DNA of 64,000 nt from Amoebophrya sp. A120 (GCA_905178155.1 CAJINV010000009.1:2891373-2955372), one strand, 5' to 3'; shown: positions 11,101-38,100, counted from the first letter of the stretch. The notes: generated by a model not told the origin, from the letters alone. Program-made: numbers and translations.

Positions 11101-14100
11101 GGAGGAGACTTTTTTTCTCACGATATTGAACCGGGTTTCATCATTAAGGAACGCCAGTCCCTTCTGGTCCAGCTTGCGCACCTCCTCTAACAACTCCGAT
11201 GTGCAAGAAAAAAACTGTGTAATAGTGTAATGTAACGCAGAACAGATGGAAGCAACACATTTACGCTCGTCATGTTGCCGGACAGTCATGCAGTCCACTT
11301 TTCTTCACTATGCGTTTATTTTCCACCACATGCTAGCCGTGCTTGACAGGCTCCGGCTCCCTCTGCCATGCACCGGAAGCAAATTTGTCATGCTGTCAGC
11401 CATCCACGTAAGTAGAGAATTACAACACTAAAATTAGTGTTTTCTTCCTGGAGAATATCGCACGAAAAAACTGTTTCACAGTGGTGATTTAGATTTTGCA
11501 AAATCTGCATCACAAGTTTTGTAATACGCGTGAAACTGAAAATCTGTCATGCGGGGTTCCTAGGGGAAAACACAGCTAGAAATCCATTGTCTTGCATGTG
11601 TGGCATGACGCACACTTCTGCGATCGATTTTCTGCATCACAAGTTCACAGTGAAACAGTTTTTTCTTGCGATAGATCATATCGGAGTTGATACTCAAACT
11701 GTTCAACAGCGGGTCCTCGTCTGGCTCTTGGGTTTCTTGTATAAAATGCAAAAGCATCGCACTCGTTGTATTGCAATCATACATTACAAATCTTTTTCTT
11801 AAGGTAGATCCGCATTACAAATTTTGTTTCTCATGCTGAGGACATCTGTGATGCATTTATACGAGTACGATACTTTTGCACAGGATATCTTGCAGCAGAA
11901 CGCCATCGCCATCCGAAGTATGCTCGTTTTGCCTCCTTAGACGACCGCTCTCTACTTCGTCCTCCTCCTCCACGCGGGACGACGAGCTGTACTTATTTCT
12001 CGTCGCGCTAGAAGAACTACCTCCCGTGGTCGGGGGCCCCCGCCCTGGTCGTGCCCCTGGTGCGTATGAACTGCAAAAGTAGTATCGTACTCCCTCGTAT
12101 AAAAAATGCATACACAAATTTCCTCAGCATGAGAAATAAAATTTGCAATGCGGATGTACCTTAGCAAAAGAATTTGTGATGCATGATTGCAATACAAGTA
12201 CGATACTTTTGCACAGGATACTGCGCCGTCGCTGGCCATCGCAGGACGACCACCCGATACCTCATGCAGCCGTGGTGATGCGCGGGAAAAGAAAGACATC
12301 GAGGTTGACGGAAAAAGCATTCCTATCCTGAGTAAAAACGTCCCCACACCAGAGTTGTCATGCAGATTTGCAATGACAGGAACATTTGTAATGCGCATCG
12401 CCAGGAGAGGCATTGTTAGTCGTGTTTTGGAATTTGTAATGCTGTAAACAGGATGAGTAGATGGATTTCTGATGCAGCTGGCCTTGCGAACCTGCACTAC
12501 ACTACGGACTGCAACTTGTGATGCGTGACCCCCAAAAGTTCTAGGTTTGTGTTGCAAAATCCCCATCTTGACTCTGGTGTCGGGATGTTTTTACTCAGAA
12601 TAACTCCGGCGGTCGTGTCCCCGCCGAGCGGTGGTTTCCCCGAAAAGACTTCGGCGCTGGCGTTTCTCGTCTTGCCACCTCGCAGCATCAAGTTGGTAAC
12701 GTTACTCCCGTTGTAGTACTATCCGCTGCAAAAGTTGTACTAGCGCACTAGTAAAGTAGACATGATGTTCTTGATCATGATCGCAGAGCAAATTTATTAA
12801 ACTTGATCTCATCGAGTGAGAAATCATATGAATGCGGTTGAGAAAGACATGATTCATATTCTTGAGTGACTGCATTCAGAGTTTTAGTTGTACGCAATGT
12901 ACTTTTCGCTGAACATCATACTTTTGCAATCCATATTATCCCGGCACTGCTAGAGGGGGACCCCAGCAGCGCAGTAGCATCAGCTCCCATCGCGACGGTA
13001 GACTGAGAAGAATAAGACTGCACGCCCGGCAACACCTCCCACACACTGTAGCGCCAGGGAGGGCCGTTGGAGGACACAAGACCCCTGCTCACCACGGCCC
13101 CGCCGACCGCAAAGAGCGGGCTTCTTTCCAAGTAGAAACTCCGCTCGTCGATTCTGTTCGAGGGCGAAAATATTCTGGACAGTCGGCCTGTGCTGGTGCC
13201 GGAAAATGAATTATCCCCCCGGTCGGGCTTCCGCAGCTGCGTGGAAAACGTCTCGCTCGTAGTCAGAAGACCTGCGCCCAACGTGGTACTCACGCCGTTA
13301 CTCAGTAAGTTATTTTGAAACTTCGCTTCGGTAAAGTTGCGCAACCTATCCTGTGCAAAAATATCGCACTCGTATAAATGCATTACAAATTTCCTCAGCA
13401 TGAGAAATAAAATTTGTAATGCAGATTTGCCTTGGAAACAAGATTTGTAATGCAGGACTTGCATTTATACGAGTACGATACTTTTGCACAGGATACAACC
13501 CCCCGCGCGATAAAACGAAGCGATGATTCCAGTATTCGAACTTTTTGTGCGACAGCTTCAGCGCCTTATTGCAAGCAAAAATCCCCCCTCCCCATAGCTG
13601 AAAGTTTGTCATGCATATTTGTGCCCACAAATCGGGTCTGTCTTGCCAGAAGGCACATTCAGGCTGCCCGCCACGTTAATACGCAGGCCATTTGTAATGC
13701 GGTAAGGCCTACAGGGTAGCCGTCTACCATGCTAGGCGCCTACGCCAAAAGGCCCCTGCCTAGGCTTAGGATCTGCGTGCCGTCTTCTACTGCAACACAG
13801 ATCTGATTTGTGTATCCAAATCCAGCATCAGAAATTTCGTTTTGATACGGGTAGGGGGGATATTTCCTTTTGATACGCCTGCACTGCACCATCTATCGCT
13901 TTCTCGACAGAAACACCACTGTCCTTTCGTCCTGGTCCTTCTACTTCATCGATCGAAGCTTCCGCTAGTATCCTGTGCAAAAATACTCGTACTAACAAAT
14001 TGGAATTGCGTTCTTTATACACATAGAAAAATCTACGTTGTGGGTGTCCAGGTGAGTTCGCTTTGCAAATCTCATTTATGCTGAGTCAATTTTAATTTCA

Positions 14101-17100: not shown

Positions 17101-20100
17101 CGTATGCGGGTGGGGCCGCTGCGGTCTCAAATGCGGGCGGCGCCGCCGTGGTTTCTTTCGTTTAGTTTTTGGTGCGGGCGGCGCCGCTTTTCTTTCGTCT
17201 GTAAGTACTCTTCCAAAGGCGGGCGGAGCCGCTTTAGTTTCAAGGCGGGCGGGGCCGCTTCGGCTCTTTCCGCCGCGCTACGCAGCCAACGCGCTTGCTT
17301 CTTTTTGCCTTTGCCCCTCCCCTTGCTTGCCCGACGCCTTGGCCATCGGGGCGGCTTTCGCCTTTCTTTGGGGCCGCCCGCGGCTTGCTTTGCTCTTCGG
17401 CTTCGGCCTCGGCCTCGGCCTCCCTCGGCACCGCCTTCGGCTTCGCGACCGCCACAATCTTGCTTCCTTCGCCCGCTTTGCGGCCGGCTCGGCCTCCTGC
17501 CCCTCCGGCACGCTTGAGGCACCACGCAACCGGAGGAGAGGGCGCCCCGCAGTTGCCAGTCGGCTCAACTACTACTACCAACCGCGAAGAGCGTCGCCAC
17601 AAAGGCCCAGGGTGGGCGCTGGAATGTGTGCGATTGGATTGGAGCGCAAGCGGTGCAGATGTTCGCTGCGCGCGTTCCCGTGGCCAACCCCACCACCTAC
17701 ATACAAACCAGCGCCTTGAGCCGCAGCAGCCGCCTACATTCCAGTGCTCTGGGCCACGCAAGAAGTGTCCAGGGCGGGCGCTGGAATGTAGGCGGCCGGA
17801 TTCATTTGCGCGTTCGGAAGCTGCGCGGCTGTTTGTTTTGCGAGTTTCCAAGGCCGCCAAGTCAGCCGCCTACACTCCAGCGCCCTTGGCCTCGCCAGAA
17901 TGAAGGACCAAGGGCGCTGGAACATAGCTGGCCGGAGGGATTTGAGCGCAAGTTGCGCAGATGTTCGCGCACTTTGCGAGCTTCCCTGCCAAAGCCAGCC
18001 GCCTACATTCCACCACCCTGGACCCTTCTGGTGTGGCCCATAGCGCTGGAACGAATGGAGGCGGCTGGCTTTGCGCGCGGGTAGCACGGATGTTCGCCTT
18101 GCGAGTGTCCAGGGCCAAGCCCGCCACCTAGGTAGGTTCCAGCGCTCACTCTGAACCACAGCAGAAGGGCCCAGGGCGCTGGAATTCGGGCGACTGGCAG
18201 GCTTTGGGCGCAAGCGGCGCAGGTGCTCTCTGTGCGAGTTTCCGTGCCCAAGGCCGCCGCCTACATTCCAACCAATCAAAGAACGCCCTGGGCCACGCCA
18301 GAATGAAGGGCCCGGAGCGCCTTCGCATAGGCGGCGGGCTGGAATTGGGCGCCACTTGCGCGGTTGTTCGCCGTGCGGGCTTCCGTGACCAAATCAAACG
18401 CCTATATTCCAGCGCCCTTGGCCTCAGCAGCAGGGCCCAGAGCGCTTCCTTGCAGGCGGGCGGCTGGATTTGAGCAGAAGCCGCGCAGCTGTTCGCTTCG
18501 CGAGTTGGCTTCCAAGGCCGGGCCAATCGCCTAGATTCCGGGCCGGCCGGCGCCAACTTTGAGCCGGATCAGAAGTGTCCAGGGCGCTGGAAATGTAGGC
18601 GGCTAGACTTCCGCGCAAGTTGCGTCGATGTCCCCTTTGCGCGTTTCCGTGGCCACACCAGCCGCCTACACGCACCCCAACGCCCTGAGCCCCACCAGAA
18701 GGGCCCAGGGCGCTAGAATGCAGGCGGCTGGATTTCAGCGCAGGTGACGCGGATGCTCGCTCTGCGAGTGTCTGTGGCCTGCCAAGCCAGCCGCCTGCAT
18801 TCATTCCAGCGCACCGAGCCACGCCAGGAGGGCGCAGGGTGTTGCAATGTACGTAGGCGGCTGGAGGGATTTGAGCGCAGGTGGCGCGCGTGTTCGCTCA
18901 CTCTGCAGTTGCCCGTGGCCAGCCCAGGCGCCTACATTCCCGCGCCCGCTTTGGGCCACGCCAGATGTTTCACGGGCGCTGGAGTGTAGGCGGCCGGGCC
19001 CGGTCACTTCAGCAAAAGTGGCGCAGATGTTCGCTTTGCGTGAGCCACACCCACCAGAGCGAAGGGTCAGCGAGCGGCGCTGGAGTGTGGCCGCCTGGGC
19101 TCAGTCACGCACTTGAGCAAAATTGGCGAAGATGTGCGCTGTGCGAGTTTCCGTGGCCAAACCAGCCGCCTACGTTCCAGCGCTCTGAGCCGCGCCAGAG
19201 GAGTCCAGCTAACGAGCGCGCTGGAGCATAGACGGCGGGATTTGGGCAAAGGTGGCCCAGATGTTTTCTGTGCCTCGGCTCGCCTGCGAGCTTCCGCGGC
19301 CGAGCCAGCTCTTTAAATTCCAGATCCCTGAGCCAGACCAAAAGGGCCGGCCCAAAGCGCTTGAAGGTAGCCGACGGACCACATTTGAGCGCACGGCGCG
19401 CGTGGGCGCAGATGTTCCCGTGGCCCAACCGGCCACGAACATTCCAAAGCCCTGAGCCTCGCCAGAAGAGTGCTGTCCCGGGTGCCGGAAGGTAGGCGGC
19501 CGCCCGGGCCGGCTTGGGAGCAAGAAGATGGCGCAGATGCTCGCGCTGCGAGGGGGTTTGAGCGCCCATGCCCAGGCCAACCGCCTGCATTCCCAGCGCT
19601 CTGAGCCACACCAGAAGGGCCCAGGGCGCTGGAATATAGGTGGCCGCGGCCGGAGTTGAGCCAGCGCAAGTGACGCAGATTTTCGCTGTGCGAGTTCCTC
19701 TGGGCCGCTTAAGTTTTTGGCACCCATCGGCGAGGCCGCCTCTGTTTCGCCTGGCTGGCAGACTGCCCCCAAACAAAATGGATGCCGGCCGGGGGCCGGC
19801 GCGACGGCTTGGTTGCGGTGTAATAGGGGCGGGCCCGCCTCGGTTCTCTGTCCAGGACGCCTCGGCCCTGCCGCAACATGCGGCGCGCTTCTCTTTGTTT
19901 GCGTTTGTTGACTGCCTGCGCGGGCCCCTCGCTCGGGGCCGCGGCTACAGTTCGTTGTTTGTGTGCGCGCCTGCTTGAGCGACGGGCGGGCCGGCCGCCC
20001 GGGCCTTGGTGGGCTTTCGGCGCCAGTGCCCGTTTGTTGTGGTATGCCCGGCCCGCCCAACAGGCGTCCTAGCGGAAGGGCGCGCGCGCGCGCCGGATTC

Positions 20101-23100
20101 ATCATGCCGGGGCGGTGCCAGATTGGGCGCTCCAAGCAAGGCCGGCGCCGGGCCTTGACAAGGTACGGAGACCCAGCAAGGCAGCTGGTTCCCGGTAGAA
20201 GTTCATTTATGGGCATCCGAGCCAGATGGCGCCAGGCCCTGGCCAAGCCTGCCAAACGGCCGGCGCCAGGCCCTAGCGGTGCTGGACGGTGCCCGGGGGC
20301 GCCAGGGGCGGCAGGCCGGCGCAAGATTCTGGGTGGCGAGGCCACTCAGCCTACGATCGGGCTAGCTGATGCCAGCCACCCGGCTCACTGATCGCGGCCG
20401 GGGTTGTGCGGCGCAGCTAGATTTATTTCGGCGAAGGATGGAAGCCTGCTAGCCGCGGCCAGATCCTTCCTGCCTGGCCAATGAGGCGGCTGCCACGCAC
20501 ATTGTGGCCGAGGCGGCGCAGAGCCTTTGCAGGGCCTACGAACGCCATATCCTGGTGGGCCGAGCCTGCTAGCCGATGCAAAGAAATCGAAAGCATTGCG
20601 CGAGGGAGGCAGTCTGGCATAGGCCTTGGGGAGGCGGAGCAAAGGCCTTGGGAAAGGTCTCGGGGCTTGCCTGCGCTCGCAAAGCCGCTCGCGCTGTCCT
20701 CGGGGACAAGCCCTGGCGGGGCCTCGGGGGCATATGGCCGCTGGGGTTTATGTTTCTTTCGAAGTCAAGTCGCCCTCTTCTTGGGGCCGTTTTTTCTAGC
20801 TGCCCACTGTCCATCAAGATAGGGTCGGCCAAACGGCCGACCCCCATCTTGTATAATAGATAGTAATTTTTCTTAAGGTAAATCAGCATGACATCCATTA
20901 TTTTTAATTTACCTATAAATACAATATTTCCTATCATGTTTCTTAACTTTCCTCTTTTGCTATAGAATACAGAGTTTTTTTTCTCATGCTGAGAAAATTT
21001 GTAATGCATTTATACGAATAGGATAGTACCTTTACAGTTCATATCTGTTTCTGCAGCTCTTCGACCTGGACGAGTTCGTTCGCTTTTTCGTGACATTTTT
21101 CCCAGGATTTTGCCCAGTTTTTCTTCTTCGTCTCGAAATCGCGCTCCAAAACCTGCAGCTCGGGATCGTTGATCATGTTGTTCGGCAAGATGGAAAACTT
21201 TTGCTCCAAGGCGGAGAAAGCTTTTTTCTGTTTTTCCTTATCAAATGTAAAAATGTCTGAGCCTAGAAGAATGCAAGTTTGTCATGCTTGTCTGGCATGA
21301 CTCTTAAACCTGTCATGCACATTACCAAAGAGCCCCACTTTTGTGTTATGCAGAAACGTAGTCTGTCATGCAGAGTAGGCAACACCTAGAAGCTCAGAAA
21401 CTTGTCATGCTGAGCCAGCACTTGTGGCTCCGCATGATACGCCACCCAGCATCACAAGTTTCCAGACCCAGACATTTTTGCATTTGATATTCCTGCAACA
21501 GACGCACCGCGGCTTCCTTTTCCAGCTGCAACCGCTGGCGTTCCGACTCGATAGAAGTACCTGTTTTCGGGTCCTCTTCTAGCAGCCCACCTGGACGATT
21601 TTCTTCTTCATCTGGGTGTTTCTTCTGCCCCCTCAGCTGCTCCTTAAGTCCCCGCATTACCTGCTCCAGCCCGGTCATCCGCGCTTTCAACTCGGACTCC
21701 TGCTCTAGCATCTTCTCCTTTTCAGCGGGCAAAGTCCACTTCTCACGGTAGATGTGAAACAACGGCGCGGAGGAAAGACTTGATGCGGCGGGGGGTGCTA
21801 GAAGTTATCAAATGTAAAAATGTCTGGGTCTGGAAGATTGCCAGCTTCGTCATGCAGGTTTTCCATGACGCGCGCGATCTGGTATGCACGGCCTAGCATG
21901 ACAGATACTGTGAGATCTCTATCATGCCTTTCCTGCATGAGAAACTGCCTCTAGGCACTTGTTAAAAAGTGGACAACTTTTGGTAATCATGCAACACAAA
22001 TTTCTTCACGATCCAAATGTAGCATGACAAGTTACACTCTTCCAGACCCAGACATTTTTACAGTTGATACCAGTACTTCCCCAACAACATCTTCCTCGCT
22101 GGTGGGCACCAACTGCAGAACGGCCCCGACCGCCCGGCGCGCCGTGTGCAGATTTCGCCTGGCTTCCTGGAATTTCTTCTTGATCTCCCCATTGCTCAAA
22201 GGGGGGTTTTTAATTATATCAGGGTTGATTGCATCGTCCAGATCTGTCGCAAGAGGAAGGAGTAGTTCCTCCCCGGCGACTACTGCGAGGAAAAATCCCC
22301 CCACCCCATATTGAAGAAGTATATTCCTAAAAATTTGCGATGCCGATTCGTGGCCACAAATCCGGCCTCTCTTGCAAGAAGGCAAATCCAAAGGCAAAGA
22401 ATCCGCCGCCTTATGGGGGTGATTTGTATTGCTGTTTCACCTACAAACATGGGCATGGCAGGCCTCTGCTATGCTAACCTCCTACAACAAAACACCCCTA
22501 CGCAGGCTGAGACTTTGCCCGTAGTGCCTCACTGCAAGACAGGGCTGATTTGTGTACTTACACAAATCCAGCAACAGAAGTTTCCGTGTCAATATGGGGA
22601 CGAGGGGGGATTTTTCACTTTGATAGCAACTACTGGCGCCTTGTGGATCAGATTTTCTTCGAGCTCCAGCACGCGCGGATCGTTGCAGTCGTGTGCGGTG
22701 CTGCCCAACAGCTCACCCATCAGCCCCCGCACGTTGACAAATAGCCCGGCCTTATTCTGGGGAAAAACGTCCCCACCCCAGAGTTGTCATGCTAAACAAA
22801 ATGCGACACACTTTGCCCCCCCCATTGTACCATCGCCGCAGATGGCTTGGCACGCAGGGCGGGTGGGTCAGGCGGACACCGAAGTGCCATCACCATCATC
22901 TCCCGGCCACTATACCCCAGAGTTGTCATGCAAATCTGCACGGCAAAAAAGTTTCTCACGAGGAGCCCCATGAGAAGCATTCCCTAGTCGTGTTTTGGAA
23001 TTTGCGATGCTATAATCGGCGTGATGTGCTAGCTCTGTGATGCTGCTGGAGCTACCTAAACAGGAATACACTACGAGGCCAAACTTGTCATGCACAACAA

Positions 23101-26100
23101 CCAAAGTTGGCCGATTTGTCTAGCGAAATTCCCATCTGGACTATGGGGCGCGGACGTTTTTGCTCAGGATAAGCCCTCGTTTTGTGGCCCACGAGCTCGC
23201 TGAAACTGTGATCTAAATGAGCCACGTTGGTAACCACTTGCTTCGCCAGCCGCGGTGTGCACGGTTCGAACCGCAACAGGCCGTGGACCGTCGCGTGTAA
23301 TTCGCCCGGCTTTTCGGGTTCGAACTTTTCTACGTGGATTTTTTTCGGCCCCGATAGGAGGATATCAACTGCAAATATGTCTGGGTCTGGAAGATTTCGA
23401 GATTTGTCATGCATCTCGCGGACTACGCACATAGTCTGGAATGCACACAGAAGCATCACAGATTTTGCGAGACCTTCCTCATGGCTATTCGGCATGAGAA
23501 ATCCGCCTTTTGCCTAGCAAGAATTGGGCAACTTTTGGCGTTCATGCAATACAGATTTTTTTGGGCTCGAGACATAGCACGACAAGTTGCGATGGATCGT
23601 CCAGACCCAGACATATTTGCAATGCATAGAGGAGGTCCTCGCTCCTGCCTGTCCACCCGGGGCTTTGACTCCGGCTGGTCGGGCTGAAAAACTATGCATT
23701 GCAAATTGTATCGTACTAGTCATCAAATTTCTACTATAGTGAACAAAAATGCAGTTTCTCATACGGATTCAAGTAGATAAAAAACCGAATCTGTCATGAT
23801 GCATGGGTGCAATTAGTACGACTACGAGTACGACATCACTTAAATTTTGCCCGATGCATAAAAACCTTGCCCGATTTACGTTCGAGGTCGTGCTGTCTTT
23901 GGAAAGAGCCACTACAGGCTATCAAATGCAAAAATGTCTGGGTCGGGAAGAATGCAAGTCTGTCATGCTTGTCTGGCATGACTCGAGAATCTGTGTTGCA
24001 TAGGCACGAAAGAGCCCTCTTAACTGTCACGTTGCGAAAAGGCAGTTTGCCATGCAGAATACACAAGACATGGCGGCCACAAAATTTGTCATGCATAGCT
24101 GCGTATTGCGGCACATCTATCATTCACTTTTAGCATTACAAGTTTCCAGACCCAGACATGATACTTGCAATCCATACAGGCGATACGTACACAACCCTGC
24201 TAGCGTTGGTTTTGGGCGTGCCGGGAAAACCGCCATCTTCTTGTGAGCGAACGAAGTCTACTTCGGGTACGAGGTTGGCATTGTTGGCACCATCTCGTCC
24301 TGCTCGGTTTGCGTCTGTAGGTCCCATCCTTCGGCCGCGCCGACTTGCAGCGCTCCTCTGCCGCGGTCTACTTCCGCCGAGCTGCGAGCCAAGCGCCGTT
24401 CCGGGAGATATCAAATGCAAATATGTCTGGGTCTGGAAAGAGTGTAAACTTGTCATGCAGGTTTTCCATGACCCATGAGGTCTGGAATGCGGGACCTAGC
24501 ATGACAGAGTCTGCGAGGTCTCTGCCGTGCCTGTCCTGCATGAGAAACTCCCTCCCAACTTGTTCGAAAGTGGACAGCTTTTGGCACTGATGCAACACAG
24601 ATTTTTGCATTATTCGGATTCAGCATGACAAGCTGCAATCTTCCAGACCCAGACATTTTTGCAATCCATAGGAGAGGAAGGCGAACGAATGCTCGCCGTG
24701 GTCAGCGCCGGGCTATTTTTAACCCGGAGAGCTGCAGTATCCAAGAAAAAAACTGTGTGTGTGTAACTTTGTGTTGCAGAAAATGCAAAACTGTATACAC
24801 TTGTCATGCTGGACATGCATCAGAGGCTCTTTTCGTGCGTGTTCTCCCGCGCTAGCTACGCATTACAGGTTTTCTCTGTCATGCAGAGCAAACCTGTGAT
24901 GCTGTTCCTCCAAGAAAGTTACACTGACACAGTTTTTTTCTTGCATATGCAGCACCAGGGGAACCACCTCTGCTGGCCGGGAGAAGTTGTTCTCCACTTG
25001 CTTCGAACCCGGGCGGGGCCGCAAGCAGTTTCAACAACCGCAAATCCTCTTGCAAGGGCGCGATTCGTATCAAATGCAAACACGTCTGGGTCTGGAAAAC
25101 AAAGTGGAACTTGTGTTGCATCCCTAGCATTCCTGAAAAATCTGTGTTGCACAGCCAGCAAAGGCGTTGCTTTTTTGTCATGCAAAGACGCAGCATGTCA
25201 TGCGTGCCACGCATCAGTAGACGGCGTCAAATAAATTTGTCATGCACGGCTGCAGTTGAAAGCACCAGACTGATCCATGCTTTAGCATCACAAGTTTCCA
25301 GTCCCAGACATATTTGCAATGGATAATTCGCAGCTTCAGTTTCTCGGTTTCTTTCCGGTAGTTTTCTCCCAGGTCAAAGACATAAGCCCGCATGTCCGCC
25401 GAGACCTGCACATGGTCCGGAGAATCCGCCCATCAAATGCAAAAATGTCTGGGTCTGGAAGAGTGCGCGATTTGTCATGCAGTTTTTCCATGACCCATGA
25501 GATCTGGAATGCTGCAGGACCTAGCATGACAGATGCTGCCCGATCTCTCTCATGCCTATCCTGCATGAGAAACTCCCTCCCGACTTGGTCAAAACTGGAC
25601 GAGCGATTTTTGATAATCATGCAACACAGATTTTTGCATGCTTCAGATTTAGCATGACAAGCTGCATTCTTCCAGACCCAGACATTTTTACACTTGATAC
25701 CGCCGGCGGTAGGACGACGGCCCGGATGGATTGCAGCTATCCTGAGCAAAAATGTCCCCAGTTGTCATGCAGATTTGCAGCTACAGAAAGATTTGCAATG
25801 CGCATCCCCATGAGAGGCATTTCCAATCGCGTTTTGCACTTTGTAATTCTGTCGACGGGATGAGTAGATGGATTTGTGTTGCGGCTGTACTTCTACTTGC
25901 TAAACTGCCCTACAATACAGAGACGAACTTGTCATGCTCGACCCCCAAAACTTCTCGATTTGTGTTGCGAGATCCCCATCTTGACTCTGGTGTGGGAATG
26001 TTTTTACATAGGATAGCAGCTCGCTCAGATACACCTTCTGCTGGTTTTGCAGCTCCTGCTTCAGCTGCTGGATTTCGGCCTGAATCAAGCTCCGCTCTTG

Positions 26101-29100
26101 CAGTTGGTCGTCATGTTTCGCTGGATTTCGCATATTCATCCGAGCATTTTTATGCTCTTCCGCATTAGCTGCAAAAATGGGCAGCGAAGAGTTCAAGTTC
26201 GCGATTCTCTTGCCCGACGACGAGACCAGTGGCGGCGTCACAAGTGGCTGGATGAAAGTGGAGGTATTCGGCTCACTGAACGCAGATGTGGTCGTCATGG
26301 GCAACGGCATATCGAATGCAAAAGTGTCTGGGTCTGGAAACTTGTAATGCTGCGTTGGGAATAGTGAATGCTCTGTAATGCACAGGCAAGCATGAGAAAT
26401 ATCTGCGCTTCTTTGTGTTGCGTTTTTCGCCTGACAAACTGCGTTTTTGCATGACAGGCAAAAGGGCCTCTTCTTCCTTGGACACGCATCACAAATTTTT
26501 TGGCCATGCCAGACAAGCATGACAAACAAGGCCCACCCGAGCGTGGGGACAGGGTCCCCACGCTGGGGCCTTGTGCCCGTCCCTAGTGGCGCTAGTGGGG
26601 GAAGGGTGTTCGGCATCGGGGCGGACAGCGTCCGCCCCTCGCCTCACACCAGGCGCGCGCATAGTGGCCTAGTGCGCGAAGCGCTAGTGGGGGAAGGGTG
26701 TTCGGCATCGGGGCGGACAGCGTCCGCCCCTCGCCTCACACCAGGCGCGCGCATAGTGGCCTAGTGCGCGAAGCGCGAGTGGGGGCAGGGTGTTCGGCAT
26801 CGGGGCGGACAGCGTCCGCCCCTCGCCTCACACCAGGCGCGCGCATGGTGGCTTAGTGCGCGAAGCGCTAAAGGCAAAAGGATGAACAGGGTGCCCTACA
26901 TTTTGCAACACAAAACAAAAATGGAAGTCAAGGAAATAGGTCGGCATGGCTGCAGATAAATTCTGTAATATTGCGCCGCAATTCATTTCCCATGACGCAG
27001 GGCAATGTAAGTAAGTAAGCAGCTATCTCCTGGATCTGCGTTGTGGAGATAAGCGCTTTCCGATTTTTGCCTGGCAGCGCAAATATTGTTCCTTTCTCTG
27101 TGGAGGCAGTTGCTTTGCGTTTTTGCGCTTTTATCTTTTTCATTTCGGTGGTGATAAGTTGAAACACTATTCGCCAGCTATTTACAAGCAGGAACATAGA
27201 AAGTACGCTAAACAGTTACTCGCTCGCCTGAAGAAGCGAGCACCCGATTGATTTTCTCCGTCGCTTTTTTTTTTTTGCGCTTTTATCTTTTCCATTTTTC
27301 ATCGTGTCGCAAATATTTCCTTTGCGTGTCTTCATAAATGACATTAGCGCTTAGGCCACCTGTCGAGGTCACCTGTCCAGGTCACCTGTCAAGGTCACCT
27401 GTCAAGGTCACCTGTCAAGGTCACCTGTCAAAGTCACCTGTCAAGTTCACCTGTCGCCGGGGGTATGCCGTACCAGAACCCGGAAGTCAAGCAATGTAAA
27501 TATTAATCTCGCAATCTTCCAGACCCAGATCTTTTTGCATTTGATAGTGGTCACCGCCCACTTGTCCCGAACGCGCGATCGTTTTCAGTTCCTCTTGCAG
27601 GATATAACCTGCTCAGGTGTTACAAAAATCTCAAGCGTTACAATAGAATATGGAAATCTGTAATGCAAGAGTGCATGATCTAGCCAACTCTTATAGGATT
27701 GCGCATGACAAGTTCCGGAGCCCCGAACCCCAATACAATCTGGCGACAATTGTATTGCAAAAAGTGGAACGCTGTGCGAGTCTGTCATGCTCATCATGCA
27801 ACACACATTCCAAATTCTATTCGTAACGTTTGAGATTGTAACGTTTGAGCAGGTCATACAGCAGCCGACTTGCTTCGAAGTCGGAAGTGATGTCTTCCGC
27901 CTGGTCCTTGAGCCGCTTTCTTGTGTCCACCCGCTCAGCTTGTTGCTTCATCACGTCCACGCTGCTATCAAGCACCTGTTTCAAGTCGTTCAGGCGCTTT
28001 TGCCGCATTTGATCTTTTATGCATTGCCAAAGTATCGTATTAGTCTGTTGAATCGCATCACAAATTAGCCCAGCATGAGAAATGGAATTTGTCATGCTGA
28101 TTCATTCACCTTGGGATGAAAATTTGTGATGCATGATTGCGATTTTTACTACGGCTACGATACTTTTGCACAGGATATTTTTCCATTCCTCGTCTCGCTT
28201 CAAATTCAGCTTATGAACTGCAAAAGTATCGTACTCGTATAAATGCATTACAAATTTTCTCAGCATGAGAAATAAAACTTGTAATGCAGACTTGCCTTGG
28301 AAACAAGATTTGCAATGCAAGACTTGCATTAGCATTTGTACGAGTACGATACTTACTTTTGCACAGGATACAGCTCCATATTGTGCAAGTCTTGCTTGAA
28401 CTGATTCTTCAGATTGTGCAGCTGGTGCTTCAAATCGAGTGCAAATATGTCTGGTTTGTAATGCTGATCTGCCATGGCCCTTAAATCTGTACTGCGTGGC
28501 CACAAACAGCCTCTCTCGCCTGTCATGCAAAAACGCAGATTCTCATGCAGAACAATACGCAGCACAGAAGCACGACAAAACGTGTCATGCTTGGCGGCGC
28601 ATTAGATAGAGTGCGTTTTTTATTGACTGACCTGCATCACAAGTTTCCAGACCCAGACATATTTGCAATGCATACTTCAAATCTTCGTTCTCGATCTGCC
28701 GTTTCCGCAAGTTACTCAGCGCGATCTCCTATCAACTGTAAAATGTCTGGGTCTGGAAGGATGCGAACTTGTCATGCAGATTTTACATGGCCCGTGACGT
28801 CTGTGATCATGTATTCCCTGGAATCACAGATTTTCTGAGTGCTTCCTGATGCCTATTTCGCATGACAAATGGCCTCCCCGCGTAGCAGAAATTAAACTCC
28901 TCTTCTGCTGGTCATGCAATACAGATTTTTCTAGAATCCAAAGTTAGCATCACAAGTTCCAACTTTCCAGACCCAGACATTTTTGCAGTTGATATCTCCT
29001 TCAAGTACTCCTTCCTTTCCTTCCGGAGCTTCTCGATTTCCCTGGAGTAGCCAGCATCTACTAGCGCCTGTGTGTTATTATCGCGGCCGCGAGAACGGTG

Positions 29101-32100
29101 GTGATGGTGGTGCTTGTGCTCTTTTTTCCTTCGGCCGCGGCCGCGAGAACTTGACGAGCTTGCTTCCTCGTCTTTATTTTTCCTTTTCGCTTTATTTCTC
29201 GTTGACCCGCCGTGGTGCCGGCGTTCTTTACCGCCGCCTCTGCTACTGGCCGAGCGATGATCTCTATGCAAAGAAAAAAGTGTTACAGTTACACATTTGT
29301 TGTCAATTCTGCATGAGAAAGAAAACTTGCAATGCAGAAATCCTACGCGAAAACACCCATGAAACGAGGCTGCTATGCATATCCGGCATGATGACAGAGC
29401 TTGTCTATCTTGCTTGGCCTGCAACACAATGTGTAACTGTAACACTTTTTTCTCGCAATAATCTCCTGATCGGGCCTGCTGTCGCTCGAAGTGCTCCCGC
29501 GGCGTGCTTCTTTCGCTCCCCGCACTCAATGGCTCACGACCATTTGCGCTGCTCGTCCCGCTTGCCGAGCCAGCCACGTCCGCGCCACTCTTTCCCTGTC
29601 CCTGTCGAGGAGATGTTGAAGCCTTTTTCTTTTTCTTTCGCCTCTTTTTCCGCGAGCCGGCGGCCCTCCTGTCTGCTTTCTCGCTTTCGCTCATCGGACC
29701 ACCTCCCTTCAGATTCTCCACCCTAGCAAGTACCTCCTTGCGATTCTTGTCGCGAGCGCGGCGGTATGAAATGTAAAAATGTCTGGGTCTGGAAGATTGC
29801 AACCCGTCATGCTAAATCTGCAGCATGCAAAAATCTGTGTTGCATGATTACCAAAATTCGTCCATTTTTGATCAAGTCGGGAGGGAGTTTCTCATGCAGG
29901 ATAGGCATGAGAGAGGTCTCGCAGAATCTGTCATGCTAGGTCCTGCATTCCAGACCTCATGGGTCATGGAAAAGCAGCATGACAAATCGCGCACTCTTCC
30001 AGACCCAGACATTTTTGCATTTGATAGGCGGCGGTACGCCAGGCGGTGCGGACTGGTGCTGCTTAAAGAGGTCGTGGAGCTCCCACTAGCGGTCCGAGAT
30101 TCCTCGGAAGTTAAGATGGGAGTTATTGCAAGGAAAAATCCCCCCTCCCCATATCAAAACGGAAATCTGTGATGCAGATTTGTGGTCACAAATCAGCTTT
30201 GTGATGCTAGAAGGCAAAAGATGCGGACTGTAGTGGTGTCTAAGGGTGGGAAAGCCTTGCAGCTCCAGGATGAGAGGAGGCAACTGGAAGTGGGAAACAG
30301 CATGACAGATTGCCTGCAATGTAGGCTGCAGCTTCGTCTCTTGGCCTTCTAGCAATACAAGTCGATCTGTGTACTCAAATACAGCATTACAAATTCGCGC
30401 ATCTTCCGTTTCCGATATGGGGTGGGGGCTTTTTTCACTTTGATAGGAGTGGACGAGAGACTGTAGGCGTCCAGCATCTGCGTCAGCTCGGGCGAGCGGG
30501 GGGCGAGTCTGATTTGCATTTAGATTGTGGGATGTTGGTCCTCGTGGAGACAGGAGACAAAGAACAAGCGCAGTGGACTTATTGTCGCATACTCAACTTC
30601 TTTCGGTTTCATTTTTTTCTTTTGCATTGTTGTTCTGCAAGCATGACAAAAATACCGAATTGAATTGGCAATAGCGTTGGCCAGAAAAATGAATCATAAT
30701 GAAGTACTTTGCCTTCTCCCTTTTCATCTGTTCCCGGAGCGTTTCCTTCTGAGAGGGGATTCGCGACTCCAGCTGTTCCAACAATTCATCTTCAGCCGAG
30801 AAACGCTCGCGGCCCTTGCCTTCATCCCGTGATTCTCTTTTCATAATTTTCGACGCAGATACAACTGTAGACGAAGACTTCCGCTTCAGATCTTCGTCGT
30901 CCTCTTCTTCGTCAGACACGCGGGTTTCGGGCTTGGCGAGGTAGTTCTTATCCACTGTCATTTCCCTTTTTCTGCTTCGTTCTTTGTTCCCGCGCATGAG
31001 GTCCTATGAACTGCAAAAATATCGCACTCGTATAAATGCATTACAAATTCCTCAGCATGAGAAATGAAATTTGTAATGCGGATTTGCCTTAACGTAATGC
31101 ATGATTGCAATACGAGTACGATACTTTTGCACAGGATAGGTCCGACAGCTGCGCCCTGTGCTCGTCCAAGAGCAGCTCAGGCCCCCTCGCACTCACCGCG
31201 GCATCAAGAGCGCTGGTGGACAGTCCACTTTGCAGGTCTGACACCATCTTCTGCTTGTTCTCCCGACCCGCCGCGCTGGGCCTTTTTTGTCCTCGCGGCG
31301 CGCGGTCTTTGGAAACGGTGGCGATGTGGCCTTCCCGCATGATGCGCGGAATTCGGCCGCGGAAGGGGGCGTAGCCGGTGCCCGCCCCCCGGTGCCCGAA
31401 CACGTCCGGAATCTTGGCCATTGCGTGCTTGAACTCGCCCAGCAACTGCGGACTGCGATCGCCGATATGCAGTGCCAATATGTCTGGGTCTGGAAGGATG
31501 TCTTGCAGATATTTGTCATGCTGTTTTTCCATGACCCAGCAGGTGTGGCATGCAAGGTCTAGCTAGCGTTACAGGTTTGAGAAGGTGCGCCGATGGTGCC
31601 TAAACCGCATGACGTGTCAACTGCTTTATTGCCGGGGACAAAAATAAATGGGCAAGCGGAAGCTTAAGCTTTGCTGTCCATGCATGAGAGATCTTATGTG
31701 TGTTGTGAAATTCGCATATACAAATTCCACCCTTCCCGACCCAGTAGACTCATCTTTGCAATGGATAGCCGAGCTGCGTCAGCAGCATTTCCTCTTCGTC
31801 GTGGGGATCCCCGGACTCCGCAAGAAACGGGTGCTGCACCTCGCCCTCTGCTTTGCGTCTGCTTCGGGGTTGTTTCTTGTTTCTACCAGACGAAGAAACT
31901 TGCTGCACTTGCTGCTGTAGTAAAGAGGCCTCAGCATGATCCTGCAAGAGCTGCGAATCGTCCACATGGTCGCGCATCTCTAGTCGCGCCGGCAGCTGTT
32001 GCTCGTACTCGGTGACCATCTCCGTCTCTTTCGCCTGCTGGTCCACGTCCACGTCCTTCGAGCTCGCTCCCGTGAGAGAGGATGATGCAGTAGAGCATCA

Positions 32101-35100
32101 TAATGAAAAATCCAACCTCCCAATATCAAAAAAACAGGAAGTCGGTGCTTCGGGATTTGTGTACTACGCAAGTCCAAGTCAGCAGCTTTATTGCCTTTCA
32201 GTAGAAGACTGCAGGGAGACGCAACGCTTGGACAGTGATGTTGTGAGGTACTAGGTGCCTAGCACGACAATAAACGTCCGCCGTGTACGTAGGGCTAACA
32301 GCATCTTCCCAAAGCGCCTGCATAAAAAATGCGGCGGACTTGCTAGTACATTTGCCTTCTTGCAATTCAGACGCGATCTGTGGCCACAAATCAACATGAT
32401 CACAAATTTATTTCAGAAGCATGCCATGCCGTTTCAAAATGGCGTGTATTTCATTCTGAGAGGGAGTTACTTATTTTTCCCTCGCGATAAAGAAGAATCT
32501 TTTTTCTTCCTCCCCTTCGGCACGGACGCTGAGCGGCTGGCCCGGGAGTGTGTCGCGGCCGAGGTGCGAATCTTTGATATCGACTTGCGCTTCGTCTCTT
32601 CTTGCGCTCGAAACTTTTCCTCGAGGACCTGCTGCATTTTGGACGACGAGGAGGAAGAAGCGCGCGGATGTTTCATGTTTTGCGGCTGAGCAGTAGTTCT
32701 TTGGGCAACAACTACATCCGACGCTCTTGTCCGGCGGTTTGCTTTCGCAAGCTCTATCCAGGAAAAAAACTGTGTAAGTGTAAATTCGTGTTGCAGACGA
32801 TGCAAGACACTTACACCTGTCATGCTGGACATGCGTAAGGGGCTCTTTTTGTACGTGTTTTCACATTCACGTACTAGGAACGCATGACAGGAGGTTTTCT
32901 GTGCCATGCAGAGCAAACTTGTGATGCTGTTCCTCCAAGAAAGTTACACTTACACAGTTTTTTTCTTGCATAAGCTCCTCCTGGTAATCATAGTTTTCCG
33001 CCCCCGGCCGGAAGGGATGCTGCGCAGACTTTCTTCGGCCGTGGTCCTGCTGGTCCTGAAGACTTCGAGATGATCTCCTACTTCTTCCACCCGCACGCTC
33101 TTGCGAAGGTCCAGGGCTCCTTCGGGAGGAACTTCTCCTATGTCCTCTTCCTCCCTTGGAGGTACTAGCCCCCTCGATTTTCTTGCCGTCCACTCCTTCA
33201 TCCACCTCCACCGGCCCATACAGCCGCCTCCTCTCCATCTCGCTCTTCTGCCGCAGCAGCGCCGCCAGCTTGTCACGCTGCGCGTCGGAGAGCTCCTGCA
33301 CCTTGTTGTCGACCGTGACCTCCAACCCGTGAACCAGCTCCGTCGTGGTTCCCTCCGTTAACTGCCGCAGCAGATCGAGATAGGCGTCCTCACCACCATA
33401 CTCCTCGTCCAGTATCCTGTGCAAAAGTATCGCACTCGTAATAGTAATCGCATACGCATTCATGCATATACAAATCTCACTCTCAAGGTAAATCCGCATA
33501 ATTTTACAAATTTTATTCCTCATACATGCTGTTGCTGAGGAAATTTCAATTTGTCATTTGTCATGCGGTTTATACTAGTACGATACTTTTGCAAGAATGC
33601 ATATCCAGAAGGTCGCGCTTATTACCCTGCGACCCCTCGGCCTTCCGCACTCTGCTCCGCGGCGACTCGTGCTTGCTACCCCGAAACAGCGGCTTTCTCT
33701 ATGACAATGCACAACTACCCCTCCCCCTCATTTCTATAGCATGAACGGCAATACAAGCATCAGCAAGAATGCCAGTTTTGCATGACAGACACAGATTTGC
33801 GCCGGAGTATAGTGCTATTTGGGCTACCAGAACTTGTCATGCAAACAGTGCCAAGAAGCAACGGGTGGATTGGGTATTTTGCATGACAAATGAGGGGGAG
33901 GGGGAGTTGTGCACTTTCATATTCTCTGCGCCGAAGTGACGGGCTCGTGATCGGCCGCGTAAATGACGCGGGAGATCAGACTGCCCCGCGAGTCAGACGA
34001 TTTCTTCTGCTTCTTTTCCACTTCTTTCATCTTCGCGCCAGCACCTGTAGAAGTACTGGCGGAGGCGGCGGAGGCAGCGCTAGCATTCATCATTTTTCTC
34101 CGCTTCATTTCAAAGAGCAGCAACTCTTCCGCCCCGCGCTCCAACAGTTTCTGTTTCGCAACGTCGTCCCGCAGGTGGCGGTGCCGCTCGAACGCCTCGT
34201 GCTTCTTATGAACTGCAAAAGTATCGTACTCCTACTCGTATAAATGCATATACAAATTTCCTCAGCATGACAAATAGGATTTGTCATGCTGATTTGCCTT
34301 GCTCTAATGCAGGATTTGCATTCATACGTCGAGTACGAGACTTTTGCACAGGATACTTCTGGCGCGGCGACAGCTCCACGGCGTCTTCTATCAGGGTGTA
34401 CTTCGAGCCCAGCTCGCGCATCCGCCGTTTTCGGTCTTGATCTGCCTCCACCCGTCTGCGCTCCGCAGCAAGCACTGCGGGGTCGATCTCTTCCTCGAAC
34501 TCCTCATCGTCAAGACCTGGTCCATTCCCGCTTCTCTCCGCAGCGCTAGCCCTCGTGACACCAGCTGCTATCCGCGACAAATGTTTATTTCCCGAACCCA
34601 CTTACAAATTGAACATATGCTGAGTCGTCCGCATGACAAAAGTTCTCCACCAGCTTGCTCAGCATGACAAATCAAACGGACTCTTCATCGCGTTGGCAAA
34701 GTCATGTGCATTTATTTTTTGTACGTGTTGTAGTAAGTTGTACGGGAAATACTTTGTATTGCGTACCACCTCGACCTCCTCGTCGGCCGGTATAATTCCC
34801 GCGCCCCGCGCCAGCTGCTAAGTGTTCGCCAAAATCGTATTTGTTGCCCTTGTACTTATCACTTTTCCCGCTGGTTGTGTCCTCCGAGCTGGCAGAAATT
34901 TCGTTTTCCCGGCTGTCGCGCCTTATTTTGCGGCCCTTTTTCCCAATCTTTCCGTGATACCAAGACGGTTTCAGAACGCTGCCCGCCTGCGTTTGCGGGG
35001 AAAGAGCAGATGTAGTTGCAGTAGGTCCACCTCTGCCTGCAGCTCCTGTTGCCGATGCTCCGGCGGCCCCCGCGGAGGAACTCGTGGGAAAAGCGCCTTC

Positions 35101-38100
35101 ACCTGCAGCTTTATTCGGTGAGAGCATTTGTGCGGCGTTTTGTTTTTTTCTTTTCCTCATAGCATCGTCTTTGTCATCGCCCCTCTCTAGTACTTCTTCA
35201 CGAAGAGGAACTAAATCCTGCCCGCTATCATCCTCCTTCCTGCTGCTACTTTGGCTTTCCCCTTCCGACGGTCTCGTTTTGCGACTTACCCGCTTCATGA
35301 TCTTTTGCTTTCGCTTCTCATTCTTCCTCGCGGTCTTGGTACTCTCGCGACGTTTCTTTTCGGGCTGCCTATCTGGTCCATGGGAAGTAGAAGCTTCAGC
35401 AGACGAGGAAGCTGCGCTGCTGCTGATCGTACTCGCACTATTGCTGCTCACGACCGTGTTTTCAACATCGGCTCCCGACGGTCCACCCACATCGGCTAGC
35501 GAGTACTGTATTCCCTGGGCTTCCAGACTTTCCCGCGTCAGCCTTTTTCGAAAAGCGTCTTCCGTCTCTTCAGGTTTTCGCACCGCATTCCTGTTGCCGA
35601 TTTGCGACACGTCTTGTCCGCCTTTCGCGATCGCCTCTCTCCGCCGGTCTCGCACTTCTTGCTCGGTAAATTTCGTGCTGAGAAACGGTGATTGCTCGGG
35701 AAGTGGATAAAAACCTTCGGCTTCTTCTGCTTGTTCTTCTTTCTCTTTGTTCATTTCGTAGTGGTGCAGCAGGTCTTTGGCCGAAAGCGAAGACAGGTTC
35801 TTTTGCACAGAATTCATCTTTTTGTCATTCTGTTCTTTCCCAAGCACAGCGGACGCACGGGTTTTCCTAGCGGGAACAGCAAGACGAGCGGATGTTGAAA
35901 CTTGCTGTGAAGAGGACGACGCACGTTCTTTGTGTTGTCCAGCGTGCTCCTGCCCTTCACTTCCGGTGCGGTCCAGGGCGGATGTCGTGCTGCTCTCGTC
36001 GGAGGAAAGCCCGGGACGAAAATCTTCTCCAGGGGGCTCACGTTGGCCTGCATCTGCAATAGGCTGCAGGCGTTCCGCTGCACTGGAACGCGGAGCTCGT
36101 CCTTGACCTGCTGCTGCAACTACTACGTCCTCGGAGGTATCTGCCCCTGTGCCTGTTTCAACAAGATTTCCGGTATATTGAAAGGAAAAACTCCCCCTCC
36201 CCATACCAAAACGGGATACTTCTGGAAATTTGTGATGCTGATTTGAGGTCACAAATCGTCTCTGTATTGTAAGAAGGCAAATCCAAAACCCCGCCGCGTT
36301 CTGCAGGCAGATTGTAATGCTGCATGTCCTACGGAGGATATGCCTGCCTTGCTAGGCGCCTACACCAAAACGCCCCTACTCCGGCTTTGTATGTGCCTGC
36401 AGTCTTCTACTGCAAGACAAAGCCGATTTGTGTACACAAATCCCGCATCACAGATTTCAATTTCGATATGGGGAGGGGGGATTTTTCCTTTTGATACGGT
36501 ACGAGATTTCTTTTCCCGTTTCTTCCTTTTCCTTCTCCGTTCGGCTCCACTATCATCGTCCTCTGATCTTCCCTGATCAGGAGCTAGAGCGGCTTGATCA
36601 CCGCCCTTTTCCACAGCTGCGGCGCCGTTCGAAGTTGTACTAGCAGACATCGAGGTCGTACTAGCATCAATCACAGAAGCAGAAGGCACAGAAGGCGACG
36701 AAGCCGTATCTTGTTCACTTACAGAGTCATCGTCGCCCTTCTTCATGCTATGCCCGTGCTTACCGTGTTTCTTCTCCCTCTTGACACGCCGCGCCTGCTG
36801 CTCTCTACTTCTGTCCTCTCGGTACCCGAGGGATTCTAAAAGGATTTTTTCCCTGTCCTTATCCATCTCTTCTTGCGTCTTCCCGATCTGCGAGGGCCTT
36901 TTTTCCCTCTGTGGGAAAAATTTCCCGTCGACCACCCGGCTCTGCCACGCTTCCAGGTCCGGGGGGGCGCCGTCGAGCCCGCCGAGCTCCTTATCGGGCA
37001 GGAAGCCGGTATCCTGAGTAAAAACGTACCCACACCAGAGTCAGGATGGGGATTTTGCAACACAAACCTAGGAGTTTTGTGAGCCACGCATGACAAGTTG
37101 CACTCTGCAGTGTAGTGCAGGTTAGCAAGTGCAGCCGCGTCACAGATTCATCTGCTCATCCTGTTCACAGCATCACAAATTCGAATTCCAAAACACGATT
37201 GGAAAAGGAAATGGCTCTCATGGGGATGCGCATTACAAGTCTTCCTGTCTTTGCAAATCTGCATTACAACTCTGGTGTGGGTACGTTTTTACTCAGGATA
37301 GCCGGCTTGCTGCTGGTAGTCGTCGGCAGGCTTGTGTCCAAGACAAAAACTGTGTTAGTGTACTAACTATCTATGTTTGGCTGACAGCATCACAAATTTG
37401 CTCTACATGACTGAGTAAACCTGTCATGCGTGGCATGTAAGGGAAACACACAGACATGAAATGAGGACTTCGTGTTTGTCTGGCATGACAGATGTAACTC
37501 TGTTGCGTGTTCTGCATTTTTACAGAGTTACACTTACACAGTTTTTTTCTTGCATAGCTTGCTTTCGTCTGGCAACGAGTACTCCACACCCTGCAGCCGC
37601 ATCTGTTCCCGGAGGAAGTCGGATTTATTTGCGTATCGTGTGTAAAAATGTCCCCACCCTGTGGCTGTCATGCAAATCTGCATGCTTAAAATGTCCGTCA
37701 TGCGGATTCCAATGAGACGCTTTTTCTCCTGCTGCTTTGAAATTTGTGAAGCTCGAAGCAGCATGAGAAGCTAGATTTGTGATGCTGCTGCACAAGCTCA
37801 GCGCGATTATTACATTGCACGCCCAAACTTGTCACGCGCGACAGCCAAAGCTTCTTGATTTGTCTTGCAGATCTCCCAGCTTGATGACTATGGGGCGGGG
37901 GCGTTTTTACAAATGATACTGCAACTTTTTTCCCCACTGGCTTCAAACCGGGCTCGTTTTTCGTGATGATCGTCCGCATTTCGTCGTATCAAATGTATAA
38001 AATGTCTGGGTCTGGAAGATTTTGAGACTTGTCATGCACGTTTAGCATGAGCCGTGATGTCTGTGATGCAGGCCCTAGCATGACAGATCTTCTGAGGACT

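What the first reader, a model, noticed from the sequence alone, without database searches (positions are those of the whole stretch)
25431..30026. The same element is removable in either orientation
Seen: A copies at 24409 and 25431 are reverse complements of those at 29765 and 41901. The same holds for B (11740 vs 12065), H (27603 vs 43812), F (11456 vs 43156), D (5191 vs 39410) and E (12324 vs 37010). All are in one minus-strand gene. Established: spliceosomal, group I and group II introns are polar. Inference: the signal is symmetric (TIRs and palindromic motifs), with no fixed branch point or polypyrimidine tract.
Basis: partly seen in the sequence, partly recalled or inferred. Interest (0 to 1): 0.78.

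Follow-up and report, generated by a model that had tools for sequence, protein, structure and literature searches.

The report
Two-way transposon introns without GT-AG
Dozens of small transposon-like inserts in one long gene, likely of the parasitic dinoflagellate Amoebophrya, are missing precisely from likely-RNA contigs whichever way round they sit, and where the cut can be placed it lies one base before and four bases after their inverted ends rather than at GT-AG, which narrows how this known but unexplained intron class is likely spliced.

Summary
Real and mostly as described. All six cited pairs are reverse complements with non-palindromic cores. The elements (TAT...ATA inverted ends, 5-bp direct repeats, ~260 nt) match the published non-canonical introner elements of Amoebophrya A120 (PMC7789003). 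One likely-RNA contig bridges ~10-30 kb with element plus 5 nt removed in both orientations; removal opens a 4,118-codon minus-strand frame across 64 elements. Corrections: D 5191 is not shown to be in that frame; F 11456 is nested inside a larger intron. The signal is symmetric in DNA, but the cut is polar on the RNA: all 10 junctions with diverged repeats fit '1 nt + element + 4 nt', 7 of them exclude the mirror cut; U+2/A+3 are invariant (87 of 87), ends are not GT-AG. Likely mechanism: an altered spliceosome reading the inverted ends (0.5); rival: Euglena-like stem-guided excision (0.35). Either-orientation introners are known (Polarella, Aureococcus) but with canonical sites; I found no statement of orientation or a fixed register for the Amoebophrya class. 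The scan noted similar introns in other genomes (unchecked), none on orientation.

The parts
25431..25699 (+). Family A element, orientation 1 (CAT...ATA ends, 5-bp repeat CCGCC); inferred intron on minus strand 25427-25700
   Evidence: removal implied by record arithmetic; long terminal stem z -8.9
24409..24670 (+). Family A element, orientation 1
   Evidence: contig piece stops at 24403 and arithmetic fits
29765..30026 (-). Family A element, orientation 2
   Evidence: contig piece stops at 29759 with 64 nt left, as predicted if skipped (the joint itself was among rows not shown); stem z -8.65
41901..42165 (-). Family A element, orientation 2
   Evidence: removal supported by reading frame only
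15278..15530 (-). Family A element, orientation 2, junction seen directly
   Evidence: joint 15272>15531 in X1-X4
21806..22069 (+). Family A element, orientation 1, diverged repeats fix the cut exactly
   Evidence: joint 21801>22071, no slide
11740..11887 (-). Family B element, orientation 2, junction seen directly
   Evidence: joint 11734>11888
12065..12220 (+). Family B element, orientation 1, junction seen directly
   Evidence: joint 12060>12222
12324..12602 (+). Family E element, orientation 1, junction seen directly
   Evidence: joint 12318>12603
37010..37300 (-). Family E element, orientation 2
   Evidence: frame only
27603..27858 (+). Family H element, orientation 1
43812..44063 (-). 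Family H element, orientation 2
   Evidence: frame only
11200..11680 (.). Composite intron: F-type outer element with F copy 11456-11673 inserted 2 nt from its end
   Evidence: joint 11194>11681
43156..43367 (-). Family F element, orientation 2
   Evidence: frame only
5191..5510 (+). Family D element, orientation 1; in a minus-strand frame (6342-5113) not shown to be joined to the long gene
39410..39730 (-). Family D element, orientation 2
   Evidence: frame only
12720..12935 (.). Unassigned element whose flanking repeats agree at 1 of 5 bases, still cut at the same register
   Evidence: joint 12715>12937, no slide
26310..27546 (+). 1,237-nt composite with family A ends and tandem repeats inside; flanks agree at 1 of 5 bases; removed as element + 5
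15613..21043 (.). 5,431-nt composite with family B ends and a perfect 5-bp repeat; removed as element + 5
   Evidence: zero depth 16244-20239 in X1-X4
30509..30707 (-). Candidate canonical GT-AG intron
   Evidence: X1 contig piece stops exactly at 30708 beside the GT; acceptor inferred from frame
34601..34766 (-). Candidate canonical GT-AG intron (donor uncertain among several in-frame GTs)
   Evidence: frame only
9647..45197 (-). Host gene: 4,118-codon frame, 67 exons (median 100 nt), Ser/Arg/Ala/Glu-rich low-complexity protein, no Pfam family at cut-off in 8 exons tested; start codon not fixed

Best explanation
These are small non-coding transposon-derived inserts, matching the introner elements described for Amoebophrya A120, that are missing from likely-RNA contigs in both orientations together with 5 flanking bases, most likely because an altered spliceosome reads only their inverted ends and cuts one base before the first TAT and four bases after the last ATA. 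Shown: two-way insertion, removal of element + 5 nt, no GT-AG, no target-site preference, independence from length (134 to 5,431 nt) and from the two flanking repeats being alike. Strongly inferred: the fixed 1+4 register follows the direction of transcription, and since 1+4 equals the 5-bp duplication made on insertion, any landing site in either orientation restores the old mRNA. Inferred, untested: the inverted ends pair and bring the cut sites together; N-U-A-U serves as a donor with a free first base; the 3' cut is counted from the A at -7 used as branch point.
For: Joints: 15 of 15 shown skip element + 5; record positions match the model with a constant offset at 8 of 8 anchors (X1), 7 of 7 (X3), 5 of 5 (X2) across 34 elements, no other letters or gaps in the listed pieces. 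Retaining any one element breaks the frame in 63 of 64 cases; removing element + 0,1,3,4,6,7 leaves it open in only 2-3 of 64 (+2 and +8 are frame-neutral and are excluded by the joints). Register: 10 junctions have diverged repeats; all 10 admit 1+4, 3 fix it exactly, 7 of 7 that can tell exclude the mirror 4+1. Both orientations fold into one long terminal stem (z -8.9, -8.65; median 25 and 24.5 of the first 30 nt paired). For a spliceosome: U+2 and A+3 invariant in 87 of 87 while their stem partners vary (6 and 3 of 87), A-7 kept in 86 of 87, G.U not favoured over A.C in the stem (64 vs 61), and stem positions 4-7 pair in only 33-56 of 87, so sequence and RNA direction seem to count more than pairing. 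In print: A120 keeps 83 of 89 spliceosomal proteins and U2, U4, U5, U6 but no detected U1 (PMC7789003 sect. 10); all nine top A120 and all nine top A25 non-canonical types have T at +2 (Table S4); Giardia uses a VTATGTT donor and a fixed branch-to-3' distance (PMC6679479 passages); Fritillaria TIR introns are reported spliceosomal (review PMC11282704 sect. 6).
Against: No lariat, branch or snRNA data. The bases around A-7 do not resemble a branch consensus (positions -9/-8 vary), and donor and candidate branch would be buried in the same stem. The 5'/3' asymmetry is modest (p=0.036, one of several tests; 5 of the 10 deviating ends come from copies I added by hand). All register data come from one minus-strand gene and four runs of one sample; the 3 exact junctions are orientation-1 or unassigned copies, the reversed copies give only ranges (0-2, 0-2, 1-4, 1-5), and no single family separates the two registers. 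Eight of the nine top A120 types in Table S4 also have A at -2, which fits strand mixing or a mirror cut equally. X1-X4 are labelled RNA only as a guess; contigs cannot show efficiency or rare retention. Reversed E and H copies, 41901, 39410 and 43156 rest on the frame alone. The organism is inferred from motif match, not from a protein hit.
Confidence: 0.55

Rival explanations
1. Same facts, but removal is by a structure-guided, spliceosome-independent or second machine, as proposed for euglenid nonconventional introns: the paired inverted ends are recognised, cuts are measured from the stem (1 nt and 4 nt), exons are ligated and the intron leaves as a circle.
For: Long stem in both orientations; no G+1 or AG preference (33 and 10 of 91, near background); length-independent; Euglena code also has an offset stem (3 nt / 5-6 nt) and needs pairing (PMC12501133 passages), with circles instead of lariats (PMC11282704 sect. 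6); U1 undetected in Amoebophrya.
Against: No excess of G.U over A.C pairs on the sense strand (64 vs 61), weak pairing at stem positions 4-7, and 5'-biased conservation of U-A. The Euglena CAG/CTG signature is absent.
Confidence: 0.35
2. The elements are cut out of DNA (ciliate IES-like elimination, or an insertion-free strain), and X1-X4 are DNA of the cleaned genome.
For: TA-like symmetric ends; orientation independence is natural for double-stranded DNA; X1-X4 are RNA only by guess; joined forms in DNA runs could not be looked up (table 5b not given).
Against: X5 contigs run from exon into element at depth 25-34; an X1 contig also stops exactly at a GT donor where no inverted end fits (30708); the cut is asymmetric in one direction at 7 of 7 junctions; mixed repeats at diverged flanks rule out an empty ancestral site; A120 introns were validated with RNA-seq in print.
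Confidence: 0.05
3. The junctions are reverse-transcriptase template switches across a hairpin between direct repeats (false introns), and the elements are retained in vivo.
For: Hairpin plus 5-bp direct repeat is the recalled recipe for this artefact (search listing only: PMC4176328).
Against: Junctions with no slide at all (12720, 21806, 26310; flanks 1/5 to 3/5 alike) are skipped at the same register; 34 elements, one of 5.4 kb, are gone from one contig; retention breaks the frame in 63 of 64 cases.
Confidence: 0.02

Closest known systems
Non-canonical introner elements (IEs) of Amoebophrya A120 (Farhat et al. 2021, PMC7789003; read: abstract, passages, sections 10-12 and 16, supplement search and part 3 of 5; figures not seen)
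   Same: Inverted ends starting TAT, seven looser bases, then an A-run; 5-bp direct repeats; repeated families; about 240-260 nt; no GT-AG; many per gene; hairpin.
   Different: The paper calls splice positions relative to the hairpin variable or unknown and says nothing on element orientation in the parts read; here both orientations are removed and the register looks fixed at 1+4.
Either-orientation introners of Polarella glacialis and Aureococcus anophagefferens (bioRxiv 10.1101/2020.10.14.339549, passages; Huff et al. 2016 known only through that text)
   Same: DNA-transposon-derived introns with target duplications that make introns in either orientation and restore the mRNA.
   Different: Those take G(T/C/A) and AG from the element end or the duplication, so they need particular target sites and show orientation bias; here neither site is canonical, targets look unconstrained and no bias is significant in 84 copies.
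Euglenid nonconventional introns (PMC12501133 passages; PMC11282704 section 6)
   Same: Ends joined by a stem, frequent direct repeats, non-canonical borders, cuts offset from the stem with the longer overhang on the 3' side, wide length range, likely MITE origin.
   Different: Signature N3-CDG...CHG-N5-6 then purine, against N-TAT...ATA-N4 here; circles reported there, unknown here; 'orientation' does not occur in the Euglena paper's text.
Fritillaria borealis MITE-derived non-canonical introns (through review PMC11282704 and passages of PMC13326754)
   Same: TIR and TSD introns without GT-AG in large numbers.
   Different: Preferred AG-AC/AG-AT ends and conserved U1 there; no preferred end dinucleotide here beyond T at +2, and U1 undetected in Amoebophrya.

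Membership tests
Amoebophrya A120 introner element (IE) | Inverted repeat joining the two intron ends | tested here: met
   1063 of 1392 Watson-Crick pairs over end positions 1-16 in 87 elements; folds
Amoebophrya A120 introner element (IE) | Ends start TAT, seven looser bases, then three or more A | tested here: met
   TAT at end positions 1-3, A in 82-85 of 91 at positions 11-13; the catalogue was seeded on TAT/ATA, the A-run was not required
Amoebophrya A120 introner element (IE) | 3-5 nt direct repeat at the borders | tested here: met
   5 of 5 alike in 59, 4 in 17, 3 in 9, 1 in 2 of 87; selection used this feature, but joints confirm element + 5
Amoebophrya A120 introner element (IE) | Repeated families | tested here: met
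   six families, 82 of 97 catalogued copies, 15 singletons
Amoebophrya A120 introner element (IE) | Removed from transcripts at non-GT-AG borders | tested here: met
   runs are RNA by guess, supported by a stop at a GT donor
Amoebophrya A120 introner element (IE) | Host organism is Amoebophrya A120 | tested here: inconclusive
   no genome held, no protein hit; inferred from motif, length (mean 255 nt without those over 1 kb) and all-minus gene layout
Either-orientation introners of Polarella/Aureococcus type | Introns made in both orientations | tested here: met
Either-orientation introners of Polarella/Aureococcus type | Canonical-type sites G(T/C/A)-AG carried or recruited from the duplication | tested here: not met
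   2 of 91 GT-AG and 10 of 91 G(T/C/A)-AG in any equivalent register; 1 of 91 GT-AG at the inferred register
U2-type spliceosomal intron | GT/GC...AG ends | tested here: not met
U2-type spliceosomal intron | Donor U+2 and purine +3 | tested here: met
   87 of 87, given the inferred register
U2-type spliceosomal intron | Lariat at a branch adenosine; dependence on U2/U6 | not testable with these tools
   A-7 kept in 86 of 87; YTRAY at -45..-10 in only 5 of 50 and 12 of 34 copies
Euglenid nonconventional intron | Stem joining the ends | tested here: met
Euglenid nonconventional intron | CDG at +4..6, CHG near -8, purine at first exon base | tested here: not met
   +4 is T in 89 of 91; first exon base purine in 56 of 91
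Euglenid nonconventional intron | Excised as full-length circle | not testable with these tools
   contigs only; raw RNA runs X8, X9 did not cover the gene
MITE (non-autonomous TIR transposon) | TIR, target duplication, short, no transposase | tested here: met
   0 of 12 frames inside the two largest composites hit Pfam
MITE (non-autonomous TIR transposon) | Autonomous partner with the same ends | not testable with these tools
   no genome held; superfamily not assigned
Ciliate-type internal eliminated sequence | Absent from a somatic DNA form | tested here: inconclusive
   X5 pieces keep the elements; joined forms in DNA not listed, only 15 of 3117 joints shown

The most novel reading that the evidence does not exclude
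Amoebophrya has a splicing route that needs no splice-site dinucleotides, no particular target and no orientation: it reads a pair of inverted transposon ends and cuts at a fixed 1+4 spacing that exactly matches the 5-bp duplication, a general 'undo' for this transposon class, run either by a U1-less spliceosome or by an undescribed enzyme.
Probability: 0.6. Interest if true: 0.75.

Novelty: new variant of a known kind. Interest (0 to 1): 0.55.

Why it matters
How tens of thousands of GT-AG-free introns are removed in Amoebophrya was left open in 2021, with the borders called variable. A fixed 1+4 rule that ignores orientation, target sequence and length turns that into a testable code: it tells where to look for a branch or circle, which bases to mutate, and how to annotate these genes. 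It also explains how a transposon can fill coding exons in all three phases (25/16/25 of 66 junctions) without harm. The elements themselves and two-way introners as such are already in print, which caps the score.

Tried and rejected
No genome was held, so no genome-wide orientation count and no plus-strand gene as control. No holder on record as RNA was listed. Contig depths were not used to compare orientations or parts of the gene. G.U versus A.C test for selection on RNA pairing: null (64 vs 61). Target-site preference for G+1 or AG: none. Thirty trial ends for the 6344 insert: those that keep the frame to 5113 have 0-2 of 5 repeat matches, so the link to D 5191 was left open. Host protein: 0 of 8 exons reach a Pfam cut-off, 0 of 16 other frames, 0 of 176 candidates in one homolog search with an exon of the neighbouring gene (weak evidence). 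Eight automatic calls were dropped as overlapping or implausible before counting and 18 decayed or composite copies were added by hand, one of them (11200) absorbing 11456; a further decayed copy (44390-44578) was assumed for the frame only. The last element (63726) is off by one base in the table because the window ends; one search has it right. Huff et al. 2016 is not held; Henriet et al. 2019 and the journal version of Roy et al. were not seen; figures S19-S25 and Fig. 3-4 of PMC7789003 were not visible and may show orientation or register; supplement 3 of PMC12130899 gave no hit for the genus name or a family A motif. Earlier scan notes: none for this genome or sequence.
Full report
Observation. 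The window (50.7% G+C) holds about 100 elements bounded by inverted ends TAT...ATA and a 5-bp direct repeat. Clustering on cores with 35 nt trimmed from each end gave six families and 15 singletons among 97 copies, with no orientation conflict in 413 edges. Orientation counts are A 19/11, E 9/5, B 10/4, F 6/7, D 5/6, H 1/1, none significant.

Gene. Removing each element plus 5 nt opens long minus-strand frames. With two assumed GT-AG introns and one assumed decayed element they fuse into 4,118 stop-free codons, 45197 to 9647, across 64 elements. Retaining one element breaks the frame in 63 of 64 cases. So 'one gene' is right for most cited copies; D 5191 is not shown to belong and F 11456 is nested in a larger intron. 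The protein is low-complexity and unassigned.

Transcript evidence. Seven runs were laid. X5 contigs run from exon into element. X1-X4 (one sample, RNA by guess) skip them: 15 of 37 joints were shown and all 15 equal element + 5. A 4,804-nt X1 contig matches the model with offset 0 at 8 of 8 anchors from 12.6 to 29.8 kb; X3 and X2 contigs agree at 7 of 7 and 5 of 5 anchors. Anchors constrain sums between them, not each junction, but the listed pieces have no other letters or gaps and the frame stays open. In this span lie A 8/6, B 5/2, D 2/1, F 1/2, E 4/0, H 1/0 copies by orientation; joints are shown directly for B 11740 and 12065 and for A 15278 against 10317, 14940 and 21806. That X1 is RNA is supported by a contig piece ending exactly beside a GT donor at 30708, where no inverted end fits, and by zero depth over 16.2-20.2 kb in all four runs. 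Raw RNA runs X8 and X9 did not cover the gene.

Where the cut lies. A perfect 5-bp repeat hides the cut, but 10 junctions have diverged repeats. All 10 admit an intron of 1 nt + element + 4 nt on the sense strand; 12720, 21806 and 26310 fix it; 7 of 7 that can tell exclude the mirror image. If the register were tied to the element's own direction, about half should show the mirror (my estimate of the chance of 7 alike is about 0.02). Limits: one gene, one strand, and reversed copies give ranges only. At this register the intron reads N-U-A-U-(C/G)...A-run at the 5' end and U-run...A-U-A-N4 at the 3' end in either orientation; +1 is G in 33 of 91, the last two bases are AG in 10 of 91, and only 2 of 91 can be GT-AG in any equivalent register. 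Flanks 1 of 5 alike are cut the same way, so the repeat itself is not read, which also rejects template switching.

Mechanism. Both orientations of family A fold into one long terminal stem. Yet G.U is not favoured over A.C (64 vs 61), positions 4-7 pair poorly, and the 5' TAT is better kept than the 3' ATA (2 vs 10 of 261, p=0.036): U+2 and A+3 never change in 87 copies, A-7 changes once. This leans towards sequence-reading with RNA polarity, as by a spliceosome with a free +1 and a counted 3' cut. Precedent: Giardia's VTATGTT donor and fixed branch spacing (PMC6679479, passages). A120 keeps most of the spliceosome but no detected U1 (PMC7789003 sect. 10). Table S4 there has T at +2 in all top non-canonical types of both strains, which supports a cut one base outside TAT but cannot show polarity. 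I put the spliceosomal route at about 0.55, a Euglena-like stem-guided route at 0.35, DNA elimination at 0.05 and artefact at 0.02. No branch, lariat or circle was observed.

Known versus new. The elements fit the A120 IE description point by point (PMC7789003 sect. 11; Fig. S19 legend); the organism is inferred from that match. Gozashti et al. 2025 note tens of introners in single A120 genes (PMC12130899, passages). Two-way introners are described for Polarella and Aureococcus, with canonical-type sites (bioRxiv 10.1101/2020.10.14.339549, passages), and Gozashti et al. 2022 allowed opposite-orientation matches in their search (PMC9860276, passages). I found no statement on orientation or a fixed register for Amoebophrya IEs: sections 10-12 and 16 read whole, 'strand' 0 hits in the main text (12 of 20 places shown), the supplement's orientation hits shown concern gene order, searches, passages of PMC11282704, PMC11453091, PMC12501133, PMC13326754. 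Figures and subscription papers were not visible. Earlier scan notes report similar TIR introns in other genomes, one with a position-set 3' cut (unchecked, seen after my reading was formed).

Verdict. Observation confirmed with two small corrections; interpretation partly supported: symmetric signal yes, non-polar removal no. A known element class with an unreported, testable rule. Novelty: new variant of a known kind. Interest 0.55.

Noticed in passing
window 15613-21043: A 5,431-nt stretch with family B ends, a perfect 5-bp repeat and GC-rich repeat tracts inside is removed whole as element + 5; no Pfam hit in 8 frames inside.
   Followed up: partly
window 26310-27546: 1,237-nt composite with family A ends, 92-nt and 13-nt tandem arrays inside, flanks only 1 of 5 alike, still cut at the same register.
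   Followed up: yes
window 11200-11680: An F copy inserted 2 nt from the end of an older F element in the opposite orientation; one-step or two-step removal unknown.
   Followed up: partly
window 6344-9652: A-type start followed by 3.3 kb with 45-97-nt tandem arrays; far end unclear. One X1 contig is predicted to begin at 9655, while an X4 contig runs about 1,250 nt further.
   Followed up: partly
window 30509-30707 and 34601-34766: The two candidate GT-AG introns hold 1 and 2 copies of the elements' sub-terminal motif (0 in 12,347 exon bases), as if they were old elements that acquired canonical ends.
   Followed up: partly
elements throughout: A 9-nt sub-terminal motif shared across families occurs 231 times in 85 elements (79 have at least one), pointing inward near both ends; possibly transposase binding sites.
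   Followed up: partly
window 60103-60638: After removal, frames 64000-60103 (599 codons) and 60638-53022 (1,281 codons) overlap out of frame near element 60178; two close genes or one junction that breaks the rule.
   Followed up: no
window 45149-47489 and 304-2134: Further minus-strand frames (590 and 389 codons) with the same elements; all long frames in the window are on the minus strand.
   Followed up: no
window 8126-8443: Nested GC-rich inverted repeats starting TAT with inverted, not direct, flanks inside the 6344 insert.
   Followed up: no
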